A DNA stretch of 33,974 nt from a virus (lineage: Duplodnaviria > Caudoviricetes). The notes beneath the pieces are model-generated. The model made no database searches. It was given only the letters and a program-made list of their open reading frames with translations, and was not told the origin of the DNA. Positions 330-33,337 of the stretch are shown here, in pieces. The first letter of the stretch is position 1. Each line of letters starts with the position of its first letter. The position numbers and the translations under genes are program-made. The DNA is taken from IMG/VR virus record IMGVR_UViG_3300011339_000175, positions 1 to 33,974 of that record, one strand, 5' to 3'.

Positions 330-689
330 ATGCCAATAAGTAAACAAATATTAAGCGGGTCAACGGGTGGAATGCCTATTAAAGTAGTAGCAACTGCAAC
401 AACTGGAACAACAATACACGCAACTGGAACAAGTGCATCTGTAATTGATGAAGTTTGGCTTTATGCTACTAATACTTCAGCAAGTGCCGTAACATTAACT
501 TTAGAATATGGCTCTACAACTGCACCCGACCAAAATATAATACTTTCAATACCTTCTAAAAGTGGTTTAACAATATGTATAACTGGTTTAATTTTAGTAG
601 GTACTGGTTCAGCAGCAAGAACAATAACTGCTTTTGCAAGTGCTGCCAATGTTATTAATATTGTAGGTTATGTAAATCGTATATCATAA
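330..689 (+). CDS. Small tail-fibre-associated virion protein (allele 1)
   Basis: 119 aa, Thr/Ser/Ala-rich and beta-like, directly after the tail fibre; second allele at 31930. Confidence 0.65.
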   Translation: MPISKQILSGSTGGMPIKVVATATTGTTIHATGTSASVIDEVWLYATNTSASAVTLTLEYGSTTAPDQNIILSIPSKSGLTICITGLILVGTGSAARTITAFASAANVINIVGYVNRIS

Positions 690-1522
690 TGGGTAGATTT
701 GATTTTAAAACAAGAACGGGACAAATATCTACAATTATACAAAGTGGTATTATTGATGCCGATGCACAAGCATTTTTTAATAGAGTAATAGCAGCGGGTG
801 GAACTTTAACAAGTACAGAGCAAATAGCAATTAATGACCTTGTATTAAATATGAAAAGTGCGGGGATTTGGAACTCTATGAAAGCCATTTATCCAATGGT
901 TGGAGCAAGTGCTGCAGCTTGTGCACAGAATTTAAAATCTTCAAGTTTTACTGGTACATTTACAAGCGGTTGGACTTTTGCGAGTACTGGGGTAACGCCT
1001 AATGGAACGAGTGCATATTTTGATACTGGATTTATTCCGAATACAAGTTTAACATTTAATAGCGTAAGTTTTTCTGTTTATTCACGAAATGATTTTACAC
1101 CCTCAACTAACAAAAGTTTTGGTTGTGCTATTGGTGCTTTATCTTTGCCAATTATGGGAGCAACTTTTGAAACAACAAAACGCTATAATAGTTTCATTTA
1201 TAGTTATAATACTCCCGATATTTTAAGTTCAGCAATTAATCAAAATTTTGCAGCTTTGTTTTTAACATCACGAACATCTAATTCTTCTGCTAAATCATTT
1301 AGAAATTCATCAAATATAGCATCTGTAACAACAAATGGTCAAACAACACAGCCAACAAATTCATTTTTATTTGGTGCATTAAGATTACAATCAAGTATAG
1401 TTGAATATCTTGATTTTCAACACGCATTTGCTCATATCGGAGACGGCTTAAACGACACTCAAGCATCTAACTTTTACACAGCAGTACAAGCATTTCAAAC
1501 AACTTTAAGCAGACAAGTATAA
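689..1522 (+). CDS. Putative receptor-binding/tail protein, possible lectin-like (LamG/ConA-like) beta-sandwich
   Basis: 277 aa, Ser/Thr/Asn/Phe-rich, TAATG-coupled within the tail-fibre module; fold is inference. Confidence 0.55.
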   Translation: MGRFDFKTRTGQISTIIQSGIIDADAQAFFNRVIAAGGTLTSTEQIAINDLVLNMKSAGIWNSMKAIYPMVGASAAACAQNLKSSSFTGTFTSGWTFASTGVTPNGTSAYFDTGFIPNTSLTFNSVSFSVYSRNDFTPSTNKSFGCAIGALSLPIMGATFETTKRYNSFIYSYNTPDILSSAINQNFAALFLTSRTSNSSAKSFRNSSNIASVTTNGQTTQPTNSFLFGALRLQSSIVEYLDFQHAFAHIGDGLNDTQASNFYTAVQAFQTTLSRQV

Positions 1523-1743
1523 TGGAAGGATATATTTTAACAATAGAGCAAAAAGAAGAAATACAAGGGGTATTTTATTCAACATACGAGTTTTTTAATT
1601 GTGTGCAAGATATCAACGATATTTGGTTTTTATTTTTATCAGAGCAAGACAAAGAAACAATTATCAATACACAATGGAATTGGTTGTTGAATTTAACAGA
1701 AGGAGAATATGTGCCTAAACCTATAATAATACCAAATGAGTAA
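1522..1743 (+). CDS. Small acidic protein, possible tail fibre chaperone
   Basis: 73 aa, translationally coupled to the 277-aa gene. Confidence 0.55.
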   Translation: MEGYILTIEQKEEIQGVFYSTYEFFNCVQDINDIWFLFLSEQDKETIINTQWNWLLNLTEGEYVPKPIIIPNE

Positions 1744-2990: not shown

Positions 2991-3827
2991 ATGTCAAAAT
3001 ATCAAGATTTGCACAGTAAAATTTTACCACTAATTAAATATAATTACAATAATACTGACATCGCTAGGAGGTTAATTCCGGATGGAGATTATACAGAAAT
3101 CGAAAATTTACGAAAGTACATAGGCAAAATTAAGACTAAAGATTTAGGAAATTTAGAGCCATATACGCAAGGCAATCCGAACAACATTTTAATTATTGGA
3201 GACTTACACGCTCCATTTAATTTGCCTAATTATTTAGAGTTTTGTCTTGAGCAACAAAAAAAGTTTAAATGTGGGACAGTAGTTTTTATTGGAGACGTTA
3301 TCGATAATCACTATTCAAGTTATCACGAGAGTGACCCAGACGGAATGTCTGCCGGAGACGAATTAGACATCGCAATTTGCGAATTGCAAAAGTATTACAG
3401 AGTATTTCCTAAGGCATCTGTTATTATAGGCAATCACGATAGGTTAGTTTATCGTAAGGCATTTACTGGAGGAGTCTCAAGACGATGGATAAAAGAATAT
3501 AAAGAAGTTTTAAAAGTGCCGAATTGGGATTTTGTAGAAAGTTTAGATTTATTCGATGTTAATATTAATCACGGAGAGGGAGGAACTGCTAGAAGTAAAA
3601 TGAAAAAAGAATTACAGAGTCAAATACAAGGACATTTACATTCAGAGTTATATATTGATTATATAGTAGGAAAGAATTTTAGAATCTTTGGAATGCAAGT
3701 TGGATGCGGGATTGACAATAAAAGTTATGCAATGGCCTATGGCCGCAATTTTAAAAAACCGGCCATAGGTTGTGGAGTACTTTTAAATAAGGGGACTCTG
3801 CCAATAGTTATACCAATGCAGTTATAA
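2991..3827 (+). CDS. Calcineurin-like metallophosphoesterase
   Basis: GDLH, GDVID, GNHD, NHG and GHLH motifs in canonical order. Confidence 0.88.
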   Translation: MSKYQDLHSKILPLIKYNYNNTDIARRLIPDGDYTEIENLRKYIGKIKTKDLGNLEPYTQGNPNNILIIGDLHAPFNLPNYLEFCLEQQKKFKCGTVVFIGDVIDNHYSSYHESDPDGMSAGDELDIAICELQKYYRVFPKASVIIGNHDRLVYRKAFTGGVSRRWIKEYKEVLKVPNWDFVESLDLFDVNINHGEGGTARSKMKKELQSQIQGHLHSELYIDYIVGKNFRIFGMQVGCGIDNKSYAMAYGRNFKKPAIGCGVLLNKGTLPIVIPMQL

Positions 3828-3851
3828 ACATTTTTAGTAAATAAGTTATTT

Positions 3852-3881
3852 ATTGATATATGAATTATATTTCTATCTTTG
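3852..3881 (+). promoter_or_regulatory. Bacteroidota housekeeping-type promoter
   Basis: -7 element TATCTTTG at 3874-3881; ATTG at 3852-3855 as -33. Confidence 0.65.
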
Positions 3882-3885
3882 GCAC

Positions 3886-4211
3886 ATCAATTAGGATGCA
3901 ACCTATTGATTTAGGTTGTTGAATAATTACAGAAACACACCCTATTAAGACTTGCATCCTCTTGATAGGGTTTTTTGTTACCTAAACAAATCGACATAAG
4001 GAATTAAGGGGAAGATTACAACAATTTGACTTATGTTTAAAGCACTAAAATGGGCTTCTAATGGTGCAACTGTGAACGAAACTGCAACGGTCTAACGAAG
4101 TAGAATCAAACAGAGAGTAAAGGTATTAAATGAAAAATATTAATATCTGGATTAAGACTAACGTACTTATTCCCTAAGGCTTCCTCTGTTTACTCACCAG
4201 CTCTAATCTTC
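3886..4211 (+). ncRNA. Putative structured RNA: switch/kissing-loop leader with terminator and downstream stems
   Basis: Hairpin 3886-3910 and terminator hairpin 3940-3976 have complementary loop regions (AGGATGCAA / TTGCATCCT); further stems 3993/4037, 4042/4067, 4108/4191, 4121/4148, 4011/4211. Confidence 0.55.
3940..3976 (+). terminator. Intrinsic terminator/attenuator
   Basis: CCCTATTAAGA-cttgcatcc-TCTTGATAGGG then TTTTTTG. Confidence 0.75.
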
Positions 4212-4267
4212 AAAGTAGTATAATATATTATATACTTAATACTAATTAATAACTAAATAGATAATAT

Positions 4268-4999
4268 ATGAAAGTATGTAGTACTTGTAAAATAGAAAAA
4301 GAATTAACTGAATTTCATAAAAAATTAAATTATTTACAAAGTCTATGTAAAAATTGTCAATCAATTTATTTAAAAAAATATAGATTAAAAAATAAAGAAA
4401 TTTTAAAAGAAAAATCTAAAATATATGTAGAAAACAATAAAGAAATAATTAAACAAAAACAAAAAGAATCTCATAAAAAATATTATTTAGAAAATAAAGA
4501 AATTATAAAAGAAAAAAATAAAATTTATCAAAAAGAAAATAATAGAATAGAATATCATAAACAATATAGATTAAAAAATAAGGAAAAAATAAAAGAATAT
4601 CATAAACAACATAATTTAAACAATAGAGATAAAAAAAATGAATATTATAAAAACAAAAGATTATTAGATAATTTATTTGATTTAAAAATTAGAATAAGAC
4701 AAAGTATAAGAGTTACTTTAAAAAGACAAAATTTTAATAAAAATTCCAAAACATCAGAAATATTAGGATGCTCAATTCAAGAATTTAAAAATTATTTAGA
4801 GTTACAATTTACAAAAGGAATGACTTGGGAAAACGCTGTAGAATGGCATTTAGACCATATTTATCCAGTATCACTTGCAAAGAATGAAGAAGAACTTATA
4901 AGATTAAACCACTATACAAATTTTCAACCTTTATGGGCAAAAGACAATTTACAAAAGAGCAATAAAATAATAGACAATAAACAACTAAAATTAATATGA
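4268..4999 (+). CDS. HNH-type (homing) endonuclease with N-terminal zinc finger
   Basis: CSTC...CKNC, long Lys/Glu helical linker, WHLDHIYP...NHYTNFQPLWAKDNLQKSN; very AT-rich. Confidence 0.8.
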   Translation: MKVCSTCKIEKELTEFHKKLNYLQSLCKNCQSIYLKKYRLKNKEILKEKSKIYVENNKEIIKQKQKESHKKYYLENKEIIKEKNKIYQKENNRIEYHKQYRLKNKEKIKEYHKQHNLNNRDKKNEYYKNKRLLDNLFDLKIRIRQSIRVTLKRQNFNKNSKTSEILGCSIQEFKNYLELQFTKGMTWENAVEWHLDHIYPVSLAKNEEELIRLNHYTNFQPLWAKDNLQKSNKIIDNKQLKLI

Positions 5000-5208
5000 G
5001 TGACATATCAAAATGTTTAGACAGTTTATGTCCAAGTAAAGAGTACTGCCATAGGTATACTGCTCCGGTTGGATTATATCAAAGCTATGGAGGATTTAAC
5101 AGAGAAGAGGATGCCGATAATTGCGATATGTTTTGGCCTAATGGTAAATGTCAGTTTTGTGAATATAGCCAAGAGTCAATTAACGAAATTTTAAAATACG
5201 AAGAATGA
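4996..5208 (+). CDS. Small Cys-rich hypothetical protein
   Basis: DISKC-x4-CP-x4-CHRYTAP; ATGA-coupled on both sides. Confidence 0.65.
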   Translation: MSDISKCLDSLCPSKEYCHRYTAPVGLYQSYGGFNREEDADNCDMFWPNGKCQFCEYSQESINEILKYEE

Positions 5209-5705
5209 AAACAACAGAAAACGACAACGGAAACAACATTATATTAATAGCTCTTATATTAGCTTTATTAGGTGCTATATTTTTAACGTCTTGTGGTAGC
5301 AGAAAGGTCCAGAAGTCAGAAACTAAAGAACAAGAGCAAAAAACGGAAAAAATTACCGTTGAAACTCAAACGAGAGTAACAGACAACACTAAAATAATAG
5401 ACACCTCCTCTACAGATGAGATAGAGATTATTCCGGTAGATAATACTTTGCCTATTACAGTTAATGGAAATAAATATACAAATAGCCGTATTAAGTGGAA
5501 AAAAGTAAAAAACAATATAAGTACAGTAAAAGATGTAAAAGTCCAACACAACGCAGAAAAAAGCGGTTTAAAGACGGTTAAAAGAGACTTAATAATCGAA
5601 AGGAAACTAATAGACAGAAAACAATCTTACTGGTGGTTACTTTGGTTTTTGTTATTAATACCGGCTTACTACGTTTGGAGAAAGTATAAAGGTTTTTTTA
5701 TATGA
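5205..5705 (+). CDS. Lipoprotein with C-terminal TM helix, putative unimolecular spanin
   Basis: Hydrophobic signal ending in lipobox LTSC; C-terminal YWWLLWFLLLIPAYYVWRK. Confidence 0.6.
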   Translation: MKTTENDNGNNIILIALILALLGAIFLTSCGSRKVQKSETKEQEQKTEKITVETQTRVTDNTKIIDTSSTDEIEIIPVDNTLPITVNGNKYTNSRIKWKKVKNNISTVKDVKVQHNAEKSGLKTVKRDLIIERKLIDRKQSYWWLLWFLLLIPAYYVWRKYKGFFI

Positions 5706-6253
5706 AAGATAAGAAGTGTAAAGTCTGTCAAACTAAATTTACTCCGGTCCAGTTCGCACAAGCAGTCTGCGGATATAAATGTGCTATTGAACACTCAAAG
5801 AAACTTAAAGAACTAAAAGAGCAAAGAGAGTGGAAAGCAGAGAAAGCCATTTTAAGAGACAAACTTAAAACTTTGGGGCAATATGAGGCAGAGGCAAAAA
5901 AGTCCTTTCAAAAGTACATTAGAATGCGAGATGCTTCGTTTCCGTGCATATCTTGTGGAGTAGAAAATACAGACCTTTTTGATGGCGGCCATTTTAAAAA
6001 AGCAGAGATATACTCCGGAGTTATATTTGACGAGCATAACTGTCACAAGCAATGCAGAAAATGTAATCGGTTTCTAGGAGGAAATGAATTAAATTACAGA
6101 GCCGGATTGATTCAGAGATACGGAGTTGAATATACAGACCAGATAGAAGAGAAAGCAAACAACACACGAAACTACAAGTTTTCAAAATGCGAACTTATTG
6201 CTAAAAAATTAAAGTACGATATTTTAATAAAAGAGTTTGCAAAGTCAAAATAA
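5702..6253 (+). CDS. ninG: NinG/Rap-like recombination endonuclease
   Basis: KKCKVC...VCGYKCA, FQKYIRMRD, CISCG, DGGHF, NCHKQCRKCN. Confidence 0.88.
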   Translation: MKDKKCKVCQTKFTPVQFAQAVCGYKCAIEHSKKLKELKEQREWKAEKAILRDKLKTLGQYEAEAKKSFQKYIRMRDASFPCISCGVENTDLFDGGHFKKAEIYSGVIFDEHNCHKQCRKCNRFLGGNELNYRAGLIQRYGVEYTDQIEEKANNTRNYKFSKCELIAKKLKYDILIKEFAKSK

Positions 6254-6270: not shown

Positions 6271-6344
6271 GATATTGTTTTCATAATATTATTTTTGTTT
6301 TGGTTAAGAAGTCCCAGTCTTTTATTAGGTTGGGATTTTTTTTT
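6271..6344 (+). ncRNA. Putative ~70-nt antisense small RNA against early-gene translation starts
   Basis: Bounded by promoter and terminator, no ORF; contains ATTGTTTTCAT and TTTTGTTTTGGTT, complementary to 6517-6539 and 9181-9193. Confidence 0.6.
6311..6344 (+). terminator. Intrinsic terminator
   Basis: TCCCAGTCT-tttatt-AGGTTGGGA followed by 9 T. Confidence 0.8.
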
Positions 6345-6511: not shown

Positions 6512-6528
6512 ACTAAAACCAAAACAAA

Positions 6529-6762
6529 ATGAAAACAATTAGCGAACAATTAGGAACGATTATCGGATTAGGAATTGATTTGAATGTATTTTTTAGCGTA
6601 AATGTAACCACAACCGGAGTAACATTAATCGGTAACCATTCAGACGAAGTACAAGCGTATTTAATAACAAACGGATTTAAAGTTTATGAGTATTTATATT
6701 CTGATAATCCGGAGTGGATTGAGTTGATAAAAGACGGTTGTAGAGTAGCATTATCTAAATAA
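6529..6762 (+). CDS. Hypothetical early protein
   Basis: 77 aa, A-rich leader AACCAAAACAAAATG. Confidence 0.7.
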   Translation: MKTISEQLGTIIGLGIDLNVFFSVNVTTTGVTLIGNHSDEVQAYLITNGFKVYEYLYSDNPEWIELIKDGCRVALSK

Positions 6763-9192: not shown

Positions 9193-10104
9193 ATGCTAAT
9201 AGATTACAATAAACAACTAGATATCCTCCGCCAGATTAGATCTGGTAAACTCAAAGAGGGATTAAAACTAGATATCCCTCAGTTAGACGAATACATACGT
9301 TTTAAGACATCAAACTTCAATATAGTACTTGGACACGCAAACGTAGGTAAAACGACCTCTATTTTGTATTTAATGCTTTGTTACTCTTTAAAGCACGATT
9401 TAAAATGGCTAGTATGTAGCACCGAGAATGATTCTTACTCTTTAATTAGAAAGTTAGTTGAGTTTTTAGATGAGACTCCGATAAATTTAGTCTCTGAAAG
9501 TAACTTTAAAACTCACACCGATTTTATCAATAAACATTTTAAGTTTGTAGATAACGCAACTATGTACGATTATCATTCTGCGATTGATATGTTTAAAGCA
9601 GTAAAGAAAGATTTTAATTTTAACGGAATATTACTTGATCCATACAATGCACTCATAAAAGATAACGATTTAATGAAGACTCTAGGAGGTCACGAGTACG
9701 ATTACCAAGCGTGTACTGAAATGAGAATGTATTGCAAAGAGAATAAAGTTTCACTTTGGTTAAATACTCACGCAAATACAAACGCATTAAGACAAGTTTA
9801 CAGAGCAGACCATCCATTCGCTGGACATCCACTTCCTCCAATGGCAAGTGATGTCGAGGGAGGAGGAAAGTTCGTAAACAGAGCAGATGATTTTATAGTA
9901 GTACACCGGTTAACTTTGCATCCTCAACTATACACAACTACGATGCTGCATATAAGAAAGATAAAAGAGATTGAAACCGGAGGCAGACCTACCAGTATAG
10001 ACAATCCGATTGAAATTGTAGCTTTGCAAAATAACGTAGGATTTAGTATAGACGGAAAATCGATTTTAACGACCATAAAAGAAAGTCAATTAAATTTTTT
10101 ATAA
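9193..10104 (+). CDS. SF4 (DnaB/T7 gp4-like) helicase domain without primase
   Basis: Walker A GHANVGKT, Walker B ILLDPYN, GGGKFVNRADDFIVVHR. Confidence 0.8.
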   Translation: MLIDYNKQLDILRQIRSGKLKEGLKLDIPQLDEYIRFKTSNFNIVLGHANVGKTTSILYLMLCYSLKHDLKWLVCSTENDSYSLIRKLVEFLDETPINLVSESNFKTHTDFINKHFKFVDNATMYDYHSAIDMFKAVKKDFNFNGILLDPYNALIKDNDLMKTLGGHEYDYQACTEMRMYCKENKVSLWLNTHANTNALRQVYRADHPFAGHPLPPMASDVEGGGKFVNRADDFIVVHRLTLHPQLYTTTMLHIRKIKEIETGGRPTSIDNPIEIVALQNNVGFSIDGKSILTTIKESQLNFL

Positions 10105-13727: not shown

Positions 13728-14111
13728 ATGGAATACAAATTAATAGCAAACGAGATAAAAGACAAACTAGGAGTTAACATATATGAGAACTCACGAAAGA
13801 GACCAATAATAGACGCAAGGAGTTTATTCTGTTATATCTTACGCAAAGATTTTAATCTTACGTTACATAGTATAGCAGACATATACAAGAGCAAAGGTAA
13901 AAATTATGACCACGCAACAGTTATTCACTCTGTAAATAATTACGATTTAGCTTGTAGAGACGATAAAAGACTTGAAGAGATAAGAGCCAAAGTTTTAAAA
14001 ACAACTAATCCTCAAGCAGTACTCATAAATAGAATTAGAGACATAAACGACAAAGACAGATTACAAGGACTACACAACTTAATAGATTTTCAAGAGCAAC
14101 AACTAAAATAA
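13728..14111 (+). CDS. DnaA C-terminal (domain IV)-like HTH protein
   Basis: SRKRPIIDARSLFCYILR...TLHSIA...DHATVIHSV signature. Confidence 0.8.
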   Translation: MEYKLIANEIKDKLGVNIYENSRKRPIIDARSLFCYILRKDFNLTLHSIADIYKSKGKNYDHATVIHSVNNYDLACRDDKRLEEIRAKVLKTTNPQAVLINRIRDINDKDRLQGLHNLIDFQEQQLK

Positions 14112-31929: not shown

Positions 31930-32289
31930 ATGCCAATAAGTAAACAAATATTAAGCGGTTCAACGGGTGGAATGCCTATTAAAGTAGTAGCAACTGCAAC
32001 AACTGGAACAACTATCCACGCAACTGGAACAAGTGCATCTGTAATTGATGAAGTTTGGCTTTATGCAACTAATACTTCAGCAAGTACTGCAACATTAACT
32101 ATTGAATATGGCTCTACAACTGCACCCGACCAAAATATAATACTTTCAATTCCAGCTAAAAGTGGTTTAACTATTTGTGTTGCGGGTACAATTTTAGTAG
32201 GTACTGGTTCAGCAGCAAGAACAATTACTGCTTTTGCAAGTACTGCCAATGTTATTAATATAGTAGGTTATGTAAATCGTATATCATAA
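31930..32289 (+). CDS. Small tail-fibre-associated virion protein (allele 2)
   Basis: 111/119 aa identical to 330..689. Confidence 0.65.
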   Translation: MPISKQILSGSTGGMPIKVVATATTGTTIHATGTSASVIDEVWLYATNTSASTATLTIEYGSTTAPDQNIILSIPAKSGLTICVAGTILVGTGSAARTITAFASTANVINIVGYVNRIS

Positions 32290-33122
32290 TGGGAAGATTT
32301 GACTTTAAAACAAGAACGGGACAAATATCTACAATTATACAAAGTGGTATTATTGATGCCGATGCACAAGCATTTTTTAATAGAGTAATAGCAGCGGGTG
32401 GAACTTTAACAAGTACAGAGCAAATAGCAATTAATGACCTTGTATTAAATATGAAAAGTGCGGGGATTTGGAACTCTATGAAAGCCATTTATCCAATGGT
32501 TGGAGCAAGTGCTGCAGCTTGTGCACAGAATTTAAAATCTTCAAGTTTTACTGGTACATTTACAAGCGGTTGGACTTTTGCGAGTACTGGGGTAACGCCT
32601 AATGGAACGAGTGCATATTTTGATACTGGATTTATTCCGAATACAAGTTTAACATTTAATAGCGTAAGTTTTTCTGTTTATTCACGAAATGATTTTACAC
32701 CCTCAACTAACAAAAGTTTTGGTTGTGCTATTGGTGCTTTATCTTTGCCAATTATGGGAGCAACTTTTGAAACAACAAAACGCTATAATAGTTTCATTTA
32801 TAGTTATAATACTCCCGATATTTTAAGTTCAGCAATTAATCAAAATTTTGCAGCTTTGTTTTTAACATCACGAACATCTAATTCTTCTGCTAAATCATTT
32901 AGAAATTCATCAAATATAGCATCTGTAACAACAAATGGTCAAACAACACAGCCAACAAATTCATTTTTATTTGGTGCATTAAGATTACAATCAAGTATAG
33001 TTGAATATCTTGATTTTCAACACGCATTTGCTCATATCGGAGACGGCTTAAACGACACTCAAGCATCTAACTTTTACACAGCAGTACAAGCATTTCAAAC
33101 AACTTTAAGCAGACAAGTATAA
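32289..33122 (+). CDS. Putative receptor-binding/tail protein (same protein as 689..1522)
   Basis: Identical 277-aa translation. Confidence 0.55.
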   Translation: MGRFDFKTRTGQISTIIQSGIIDADAQAFFNRVIAAGGTLTSTEQIAINDLVLNMKSAGIWNSMKAIYPMVGASAAACAQNLKSSSFTGTFTSGWTFASTGVTPNGTSAYFDTGFIPNTSLTFNSVSFSVYSRNDFTPSTNKSFGCAIGALSLPIMGATFETTKRYNSFIYSYNTPDILSSAINQNFAALFLTSRTSNSSAKSFRNSSNIASVTTNGQTTQPTNSFLFGALRLQSSIVEYLDFQHAFAHIGDGLNDTQASNFYTAVQAFQTTLSRQV

Positions 33123-33337
33123 TGGAAGGATATATTTTAACAATAGAGCAAAAAGAAGAAATACAAGGGGTATTTTATTCAACATACGAGTTTTTTAATT
33201 GTGTGCAAGATATCAACGATATTTGGTTTTTATTTTTATCAGAGCAAGACAAAGAAACAATTATCAATACACAATGGAATTGGTTATTGGATTTAACGCA
33301 AGGAGAATACGTGCCTAAACCAATAATAATAAATTAA
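33122..33337 (+). CDS. Small acidic protein (allele 2)
   Basis: Identical to 1522..1743 until the last ~15 codons. Confidence 0.55.
   Translation: MEGYILTIEQKEEIQGVFYSTYEFFNCVQDINDIWFLFLSEQDKETIINTQWNWLLDLTQGEYVPKPIIIN

What the first reader, a model, noticed from the sequence alone, without database searches (positions are those of the whole stretch)
3874..3980. Promoter-proximal RNA switch: hairpin loop complementary to the loop of a downstream terminator
Seen: after TATCTTTG, hairpin 1 (ATCAATTAGG-ATGCAA-CCTATTGAT, 3886-3910) contains AGGATGCAA (3893-3901), the exact reverse complement of TTGCATCCT (3952-3960) in the loop of the terminator hairpin (3940-3976). A mutually exclusive hairpin CAACCTA/TAGGTTG (3899-3918) would disrupt hairpin 1. 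Knowledge: loop-loop pairing controls termination in the P4 CI and P1 C4 systems and in plasmid copy control. Inference: a kissing-loop or pseudoknot attenuator, or a ~90-nt regulatory RNA, controlling read-through.
Basis: partly seen in the sequence, partly recalled or inferred. Interest (0 to 1): 0.72.

Follow-up and report, generated by a model that had tools for sequence, protein, structure and literature searches.

The report
Loop-coded terminator gating a structured RNA
In this freshwater-type phage a 91-base stretch carries a short 'password' near its start that matches the tip of its own predicted transcription-stop hairpin, related phages keep the match with different letters, and the pairing likely decides whether transcription runs on into a 240-base non-coding, conserved-fold segment that likely helps start DNA replication where some other phages have a replication-starter gene.

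Summary
Observation confirmed. All stated coordinates are right. The seed/terminator-loop match covaries: 15 different 7-nt seeds in 34 leaders. In a set collected without looking at the leader, 20 of 21 loci have a perfect match of 7-9 nt. No Rfam family fits. The scan has reported this leader class before on other DNA (28 unreviewed findings; those shown sit before replication genes). What is new here: this subfamily gates either an initiator operon (3 of 35 loci) or a 240-330-nt non-coding block (30 of 35), with several interchangeable block types. The window's block has 14 of 36 pairs with compensatory changes and ends at the genome's densest TA/AT tract. Best model: seed pairing acts as an antiterminator, the terminated RNA feeds back in trans, and read-through RNA assists origin opening, like the lactococcal c2 origin. 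Against the origin step: four complete relatives lack leader, block and initiator alike, so the cassette is optional. No expression or functional data. Verdict: real, uncatalogued attenuator-plus-RNA cassette; interest 0.72.

The parts
3874..3881 (+). Bacteroidota -7 promoter element TAnnTTTG; its G is position -5, which puts the predicted start at 3886
   Evidence: sequence; consensus and numbering from PMC6847099 passages; a TAnnTTTG-type element (one variant, L472) precedes the leader in all 21 block-anchored loci
3886..3910 (+). Hairpin 1, early fold that shows the 3' part of the seed in its loop
   Evidence: predicted fold at 25-31 nt, -5.7 kcal/mol; same early hairpin predicted in 19 of 19 distinct block-anchored 5' domains, with UCAA/UUGA changed to GCAA/UUGC in L446 and L477
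3893..3901 (+). Seed X (AGGAUGCAA)
   Evidence: 15 distinct 7-nt seeds in 34 leaders, four variable columns Watson-Crick in 34 of 34
3889..3928 (+). Later 5' fold: inner hairpin 3898-3905/3912-3919 and outer stem 3889-3893/3924-3928, partly hiding the seed
   Evidence: predicted fold from 33-44 nt, -12.6 kcal/mol; same two-stem fold in the block-anchored set
3939..3976 (+). Predicted intrinsic terminator: 12-bp stem, 9-nt loop 3951-3959, U tract to 3976; holds X' (3952-3960)
   Evidence: -14.9 kcal/mol, z = -4.7; hairpin plus U tract in all 34 leaders
3984..4217 (+). Non-coding structured block (type 1), the read-through product
   Evidence: stops in all six frames; 14 of 36 pairs compensatory, 98.6% of cells paired, slid controls 37-51%; no Rfam match at E up to 10 beyond three chance-level hits
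4219..4260 (.). A/T tract, densest TA/AT run of the genome; candidate DNA-unwinding element (inferred)
   Evidence: 24 TA/AT steps per 40 nt, next best 21
4268..4999 (+). HNH / endonuclease VII-like gene, optional passenger after the block
   Evidence: phrog_1035 E 2.7e-18; most block loci have another gene here
4996..6253 (+). Rest of the likely read-through operon: small Cys-rich ORF, lipoprotein-like ORF, NinG; terminator-like hairpin at about 6310-6343
   Evidence: NinG PF05766 E 5e-38; ORFs and hairpin from sequence; co-transcription inferred

Best explanation
A 91-nt leader whose 5' seed and terminator loop are complementary and change together across phages likely acts as a transcription attenuator that gates a conserved-fold non-coding RNA, which likely assists opening of the adjacent A/T tract as a replication origin. 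Steps: (1) shown in sequence: promoter, two mutually exclusive 5' folds, terminator, seed match. (2) Inferred, about 0.75: as the terminator loop leaves RNA polymerase, the seed pairs with it before the 3' arm is out and hinders the terminator, giving read-through. (3) Inferred, about 0.5: terminated RNAs display the loop and hide their own seed, so they would bind the seed of nascent leaders in trans, block step 2 and damp read-through as they accumulate; the seed letters then work as a self/non-self code. (4) Inferred, about 0.4: the read-through RNA would act like the c2 PE1 transcript or ColE1 RNA II, as primer or R-loop at the A/T tract, in the slot where other phages with this leader carry an initiator and helicase.
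For: Covariation. Predicted folding path hairpin 1 -> inner/outer stems -> seed helix (73-80 nt) -> terminator (85 nt and over); seed helix probability above 0.5 in 32 of 34 nascent RNAs; in the finished RNA the loop complement is 0.91 unpaired, the seed 0.42. Seeds change far faster than the block: among 10 pairs with blocks at least 95% identical, 8 differ in seed; non-cognate seed/loop matches reach 7 nt in 2 of 210. The three gene-bearing members head replication operons: L281 DUF6291 -> Toprim/DnaB -> NinG, L184 HNH -> DUF6291 -> AAA (weak), L182 DUF7833 (weak) -> AAA (weak); in the window the block lies between leader and NinG instead. All 21 real type-1 blocks have a leader directly upstream. 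No initiator-family hit in the window or seven block genomes. A/T tract directly after the block; weaker in cassette-bearing loci (median 23, n = 12) than in cassette-free ones (32, n = 18). Precedent for interchangeable non-coding origin types: PMC7150918 passages.
Against: Four relatives rated 100% complete have no leader, no block of the seven types tried and no initiator homologue, so lack of an initiator is a family trait and the cassette is dispensable; this weakens step 4. The tract comparison is not phylogenetically independent (5 label changes, 2 forced by well-supported branches). GC skew is positive throughout and marks no origin. ViennaRNA does not model pseudoknots, so a kiss in the finished RNA is excluded by construction, and equilibrium folds are not kinetics. 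Two leaders (L284, L307) are not predicted to form the seed helix at the +1 stage. Fast seed change could reflect recombination of small modules without any trans action. No transcript ends were observed.
Confidence: 0.45

Rival explanations
1. Cis-only valve: the seed helix sets a fixed or protein/ligand-tuned read-through, as in the guanidine-IV riboswitch, with no role for the terminated RNA.
For: Same topology as guanidine-IV (kiss to the terminator loop promotes read-through; PMC11611296 Introduction). The predicted nascent seed helix needs no partner. Invariant bases outside the seed could bind a factor.
Against: Paired loop positions take up to four pair types, whereas guanidine-IV needs highly conserved loop bases (PMC7736828 passages). 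A cis helix alone does not explain seeds changing in 8 of 10 near-identical pairs.
Confidence: 0.27
2. The attenuator is real but the block is not an origin RNA: it is an accessory non-coding RNA (polymerase-modifying antiterminator, anti-defence or exclusion RNA) or a regulatory leader for the HNH-to-NinG operon.
For: Cassette absent from four complete relatives, patchy on the helicase tree and swapped between phages with identical helicases (L577 type 1, L574 type 3). In G008 it sits between terminase and portal. Other leader subfamilies precede homing endonucleases.
Against: Same leader subfamily heads initiator-helicase operons in 3 of 3 gene-bearing cases; the window's block ends at its top A/T tract; genes after the block vary freely.
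Confidence: 0.35
3. The 91-nt terminated RNA is the product: a small RNA stabilised by an internal kiss, acting on other RNAs; termination is constitutive.
For: Strong terminator in all 34 leaders; IsrK shows that such short forms act in trans (PMC4825925 passages).
Against: No promoter-like TAnnTTTG between the terminator and 4268 on the + strand, so the covarying block and the initiator genes of relatives need read-through. No conserved second seed site: 3 of 7 genomes tested have only the two leader sites.
Confidence: 0.1
4. Chance complementarity.
For: A second TTGCATCC lies at 9916 inside the helicase gene; 0.6 expected by composition.
Against: 0 of 100,000 permutations reach the cognate match length; 20 of 21 leader-blind loci match; 0 descriptor hits in shuffles.
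Confidence: 0.01

Closest known systems
Guanidine-IV (GGAM-1/mepA) riboswitch (PMC11611296 abstract and Introduction; PMC7736828 passages)
   Same: 5' loop pairs with the loop of an intrinsic terminator; pairing proposed to cause read-through; about 90-95 nt.
   Different: Loop bases here are hypervariable, not conserved; no guanidine-export gene downstream; no Rfam match; extra two-state 5' domain.
Lactococcal Ceduovirus (c2, bIL67, 923) origins (PMC7150918 passages)
   Same: Promoter-driven non-coding stretch; several non-homologous, interchangeable types in one phage group; no initiator needed.
   Different: No upstream attenuator is described in the passages read; origin activity is proven there and untested here; here the module is optional.
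pT181 / pIP501 antisense attenuators (PMC5703833 passages); ColE1 RNA I/RNA II (recalled)
   Same: RNA-RNA pairing decides termination before a replication function; variable loops give self/non-self specificity.
   Different: Their regulator is transcribed from the opposite strand; here an antisense TAnnTTTG occurs in only 1 of 34 leaders, so any regulator must be the same-strand terminated RNA.
Gifsy-1 IsrK, P4 seqA/CI/seqC (PMC4825925 passages); P1 C4 (recalled)
   Same: Short same-strand RNA acts in trans on its own longer transcript.
   Different: IsrK mainly activates translation by pairing downstream of the terminator; CI is processed from inside the transcript and has two targets. No Rfam match and no downstream target here.

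Membership tests
Guanidine-IV riboswitch | Rfam model match | tested here: not met
Guanidine-IV riboswitch | 5' loop complementary to terminator loop | tested here: met
Guanidine-IV riboswitch | Highly conserved ligand-binding loop bases | tested here: not met
   15 seeds; four columns with 2-4 pair types; only the GG/CC pair is near-invariant
Guanidine-IV riboswitch | Upstream of guanidine export genes | tested here: not met
   downstream contexts
pT181/pIP501/ColE1 antisense control | Counter-transcribed antisense RNA | tested here: not met
   antisense TAnnTTTG in 1 of 34 leaders, none in the window; motif test only, no RNA data
pT181/pIP501/ColE1 antisense control | Terminator upstream of a replication function | tested here: inconclusive
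   met for L182, L184, L281; inferred for the window
P4 CI / P1 C4 / IsrK | Rfam match to C4-type RNA or its target motifs | tested here: not met
P4 CI / P1 C4 / IsrK | Second complementary target downstream (seqC-like) | tested here: not met
   no conserved extra seed site in 7 genomes
P4 CI / P1 C4 / IsrK | Short same-strand RNA acts in trans | not testable with these tools
   only indirect: seed orthogonality and loop exposure
c2-type transcript-dependent origin | Promoter followed by an ORF-free stretch, in several interchangeable types | tested here: met
c2-type transcript-dependent origin | Supports replication without a phage initiator | not testable with these tools
   no initiator found, but relatives without the block also lack one
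c2-type transcript-dependent origin | Sequence similarity to known phage or plasmid origins | tested here: not met
   blastn of four block types against cultured phages and of the window block against plasmids gave nothing beyond short chance hits

The most novel reading that the evidence does not exclude
A portable, protein-free phage replicon made of two RNAs from one promoter: a terminated leader that counts its own copies through a 7-9-nt loop code and shuts off read-through, and an interchangeable structured RNA that primes or opens the origin. It would be ColE1-like copy control and incompatibility without an antisense promoter, with the same gate reused in front of protein initiators.
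Probability: 0.27. Interest if true: 0.9.

Novelty: new variant of a known kind. Interest (0 to 1): 0.72.

Why it matters
It shows a widespread, uncatalogued phage attenuator whose specificity sits in a swappable loop code, and it reveals a second uncatalogued RNA class behind it. If the block is an origin RNA, it would explain how some small Bacteroidota phages start replication without an initiator, primase or polymerase, and a 400-bp fragment could be tested at once as a replicon. Orthogonal seed pairs (2 of 210 cross-matches) would also be ready-made parts for gene control in Flavobacterium.

Tried and rejected
Seed-only pattern scan of viral contigs: the part of the output seen was chance. 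Short-pattern scan of genome contigs: 120 stretches shown of about 340; none passed the filter, so no host or prophage was identified. RNA runs: all contigs; X15 covers the whole stretch evenly and may hold DNA, the others hold short pieces of the most conserved part; no start, end or level can be read. GC skew: uninformative. A coding role for the block: stops in all frames; the 20-codon frame at about 4035 loses its ATG in L009. A 5'-end extension of the seed helix into the terminator's 3' arm (AUCAA/UUGAU) is predicted for the window but is weakened where that arm reads UUGUU, so not treated as defining. Extra seed targets in the genome: not conserved. 'Block replaces the initiator' as a strict rule: rejected by G011-G014. 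Weak Rfam hits ToxI, CRISPR-DR19, AaHKsRNA82 (E 1.7-6.6): chance. PDB search of the G008 306-aa ORF: none. Literature searches with no relevant hit.

Full report
Setting. The window is a Bacteroidota-type tailed phage with every called gene on the + strand: endolysin, metallophosphoesterase, HNH, NinG, Erf, SSB, DnaB-like helicase, 5'-3' exonuclease, terminase, portal. No integrase, repressor, polymerase, stand-alone primase or initiator family was hit among the 51 ORFs scanned with PHROGs and the 26 with Pfam. The element lies in the 440-nt gap between the phosphoesterase (ends 3827) and the HNH gene (starts 4268). The host group is inferred from the TAnnTTTG promoter type (PMC6847099 passages), whose numbering puts +1 at 3886, exactly where conservation begins.

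Observation. Every coordinate is right. The 95-nt stretch folds with z = -6.1. Rfam gives nothing at gathering score in the whole window and three chance-level hits at E up to 10 in 3800-4300; 32 related loci gave only tRNAs.

Covariation. A protein-anchored search (51 loci) first showed the leader with changed seeds in 9 of the loci visible (output cut after L023). Pattern scans gave 209 matches, 162 distinct; 34 were kept for full promoter, terminator tail and a complement of at least 6 nt. That filter is partly circular; in the rows I could see, one promoter-plus-terminator row (L289, unrelated sequence) failed it, two were cut by contig ends, and the output was cut in the genome part. With L295 dropped as identical to the window and the window added, 34 leaders carry 15 distinct 7-nt seeds; the four variable columns are Watson-Crick in 34 of 34 with up to four pair types; cognate matches average 7.8 nt against 3.4 for non-cognate (2 of 210 reach 7), and 0 of 100,000 permutations reach the observed value. 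The non-circular test is the block-anchored scan: 21 of 103 hits were real blocks, all 21 have a leader upstream, 20 with a perfect 7-9-nt match and one (L472) with 5 nt plus a G-U extension.

Folding. Predicted path for the window: hairpin 1 at 25-31 nt, inner hairpin from 33, inner plus outer stem by 44, seed helix at 73-80, terminator from 85. Across 34 leaders the seed is 0.71 unpaired at the hairpin-1 stage and 0.42 later; the seed helix has probability above 0.5 in 32 of 34 nascent RNAs; the loop complement is 0.91 unpaired in the finished RNA. Pseudoknots are not modelled. Hairpin 1 was fixed by my first pattern, but it is also predicted in 19 of 19 distinct block-anchored 5' domains, individually weak (0-33 of 200 shuffles as good), with compensatory GCAA/UUGC in L446 and L477. 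Both exclusive folds therefore look selected.

What is gated. Of 35 rows (34 kept leaders plus the window), 30 are followed by a non-coding stretch with no ORF of 55 aa in at least the first 227 nt, 2 are cut off but start like the window's block, and 3 have a gene within 40 nt. Those three head replication operons: DUF6291 -> Toprim/DnaB -> NinG (L281), HNH -> DUF6291 -> weak AAA (L184), weak DUF7833 -> weak AAA (L182). That DUF6291, DUF7833, Lin1244_N, HTH_36 and DUF1376 proteins are initiators is recalled and inferred from position. Other leader subfamilies precede such genes, a primase, antirepressors or homing endonucleases (45 of 66 downstream ORFs scanned). The blocks fall into types with little mutual similarity; L544 links types 1 and 4. 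Type 1 (32 sequences) has 14 of 36 pairs compensatory, 98.6% of cells paired, 0 of 500 shuffles, slid controls 37-51% (relatedness inflates the shuffle test); one-sided changes go to G-U on the + strand. Type 2 (7 sequences) has 11 of 67. Seeds and blocks are shuffled against each other, and seeds differ in 8 of 10 pairs whose blocks are at least 95% identical (pairs not independent).

Origin idea, for and against. The window's densest TA/AT tract begins right after the block, and in 27 of 29 helicase-family loci with a late-gene marker the top tract lies between late module and helicase. No initiator hit appeared in seven block genomes (G001-G004, G006-G008; 78 and 59 of 105 unshared ORFs of eight genomes scanned by Pfam and PHROGs), and ten putative initiators hit only their own source by tblastn. 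Ceduovirus origins are a precedent: promoter-driven non-coding stretches of three unrelated types that support plasmid replication without phage proteins (PMC7150918 passages). Against: G011-G014, rated complete, have no leader, block or initiator homologue (no Pfam scan was run on them), so the cassette is optional. Their tracts are stronger (median 32 versus 23), which fits an RNA-assisted origin but rests on about five gains or losses. GC skew and RNA contigs were uninformative.

Known systems. It works like guanidine-IV in topology (PMC11611296 abstract and Introduction; PMC7736828 passages), like pT181/pIP501 in logic (PMC5703833 passages; ColE1 recalled), and like IsrK or P4 CI in using a same-strand short RNA (PMC4825925 passages), and fails a defining feature of each. 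Searches found no paper on this element (PMC2864571 seen as a listing only); PMC10690425 (passages; 6 supplementary files searched without a hit, files 1, 2 and 4 not searchable) may hold parts of it among its unnamed candidates. The scan's own notes list 28 unreviewed findings of the leader class; the 8 shown are all before replication genes, and a word search for a gated non-coding RNA found none.

Verdict. The switch anatomy is real and well supported; attenuation is likely, trans feedback is about even, the origin role of the block is the bold and testable step. New variant of a known kind; interest 0.72.

Noticed in passing
L587:5229-5285; similar ends in L579, L581, L583, L585, L594: Cassette-free relatives carry a different ~250-nt non-coding stretch after the early promoter that ends in a type III hammerhead-like core just before a start codon (RF00008, 39.3 bits, E 2.9e-07, below the gathering score).
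   Followed up: partly
L593:3712-3940, L604 (about 6520-6750): A further block type behind the same leader: a tiny ORF, then a G6 run followed by a long pyrimidine tract, reminiscent (recalled) of R-loop-stabilising G runs.
   Followed up: no
L602, L603, L553, L185, L282: Second leaders of other subfamilies with different seeds sit directly before NUMOD4-HNH, GIY-YIG-like or ParB-methyltransferase genes, sometimes in the same genome as a block-gating leader.
   Followed up: partly
L555:4620-5000 (G008): An unrelated 53-kb phage (1 of 72 ORFs shared with the window) carries leader plus type-1 block between terminase and portal; a 133-aa ORF before its helicase looks (recalled motif) like only the C-terminal part of an initiator.
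   Followed up: partly
L284:819-1250: Leader plus type-4 block directly after a gene whose end resembles a tyrosine recombinase (recalled), with no ORF behind it; possibly a satellite or integrative element.
   Followed up: no
window 330-1743 versus 31930-33337: The window ends repeat the same three genes but not identically (the 119-aa and ~72-aa proteins differ), suggesting a circular ~31.6-kb genome assembled from mixed strains.
   Followed up: no
window 13728-14111: Small protein with a DnaA C-terminal HTH domain (PF08299, E 6.4e-08), shared across the family; a candidate origin-binding or regulatory protein.
   Followed up: no
alignment A2 columns 70-75 and 199-204: A direct repeat GGCTT in the block changes to GGCAT at both places in L544, hinting at paired binding sites.
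   Followed up: no
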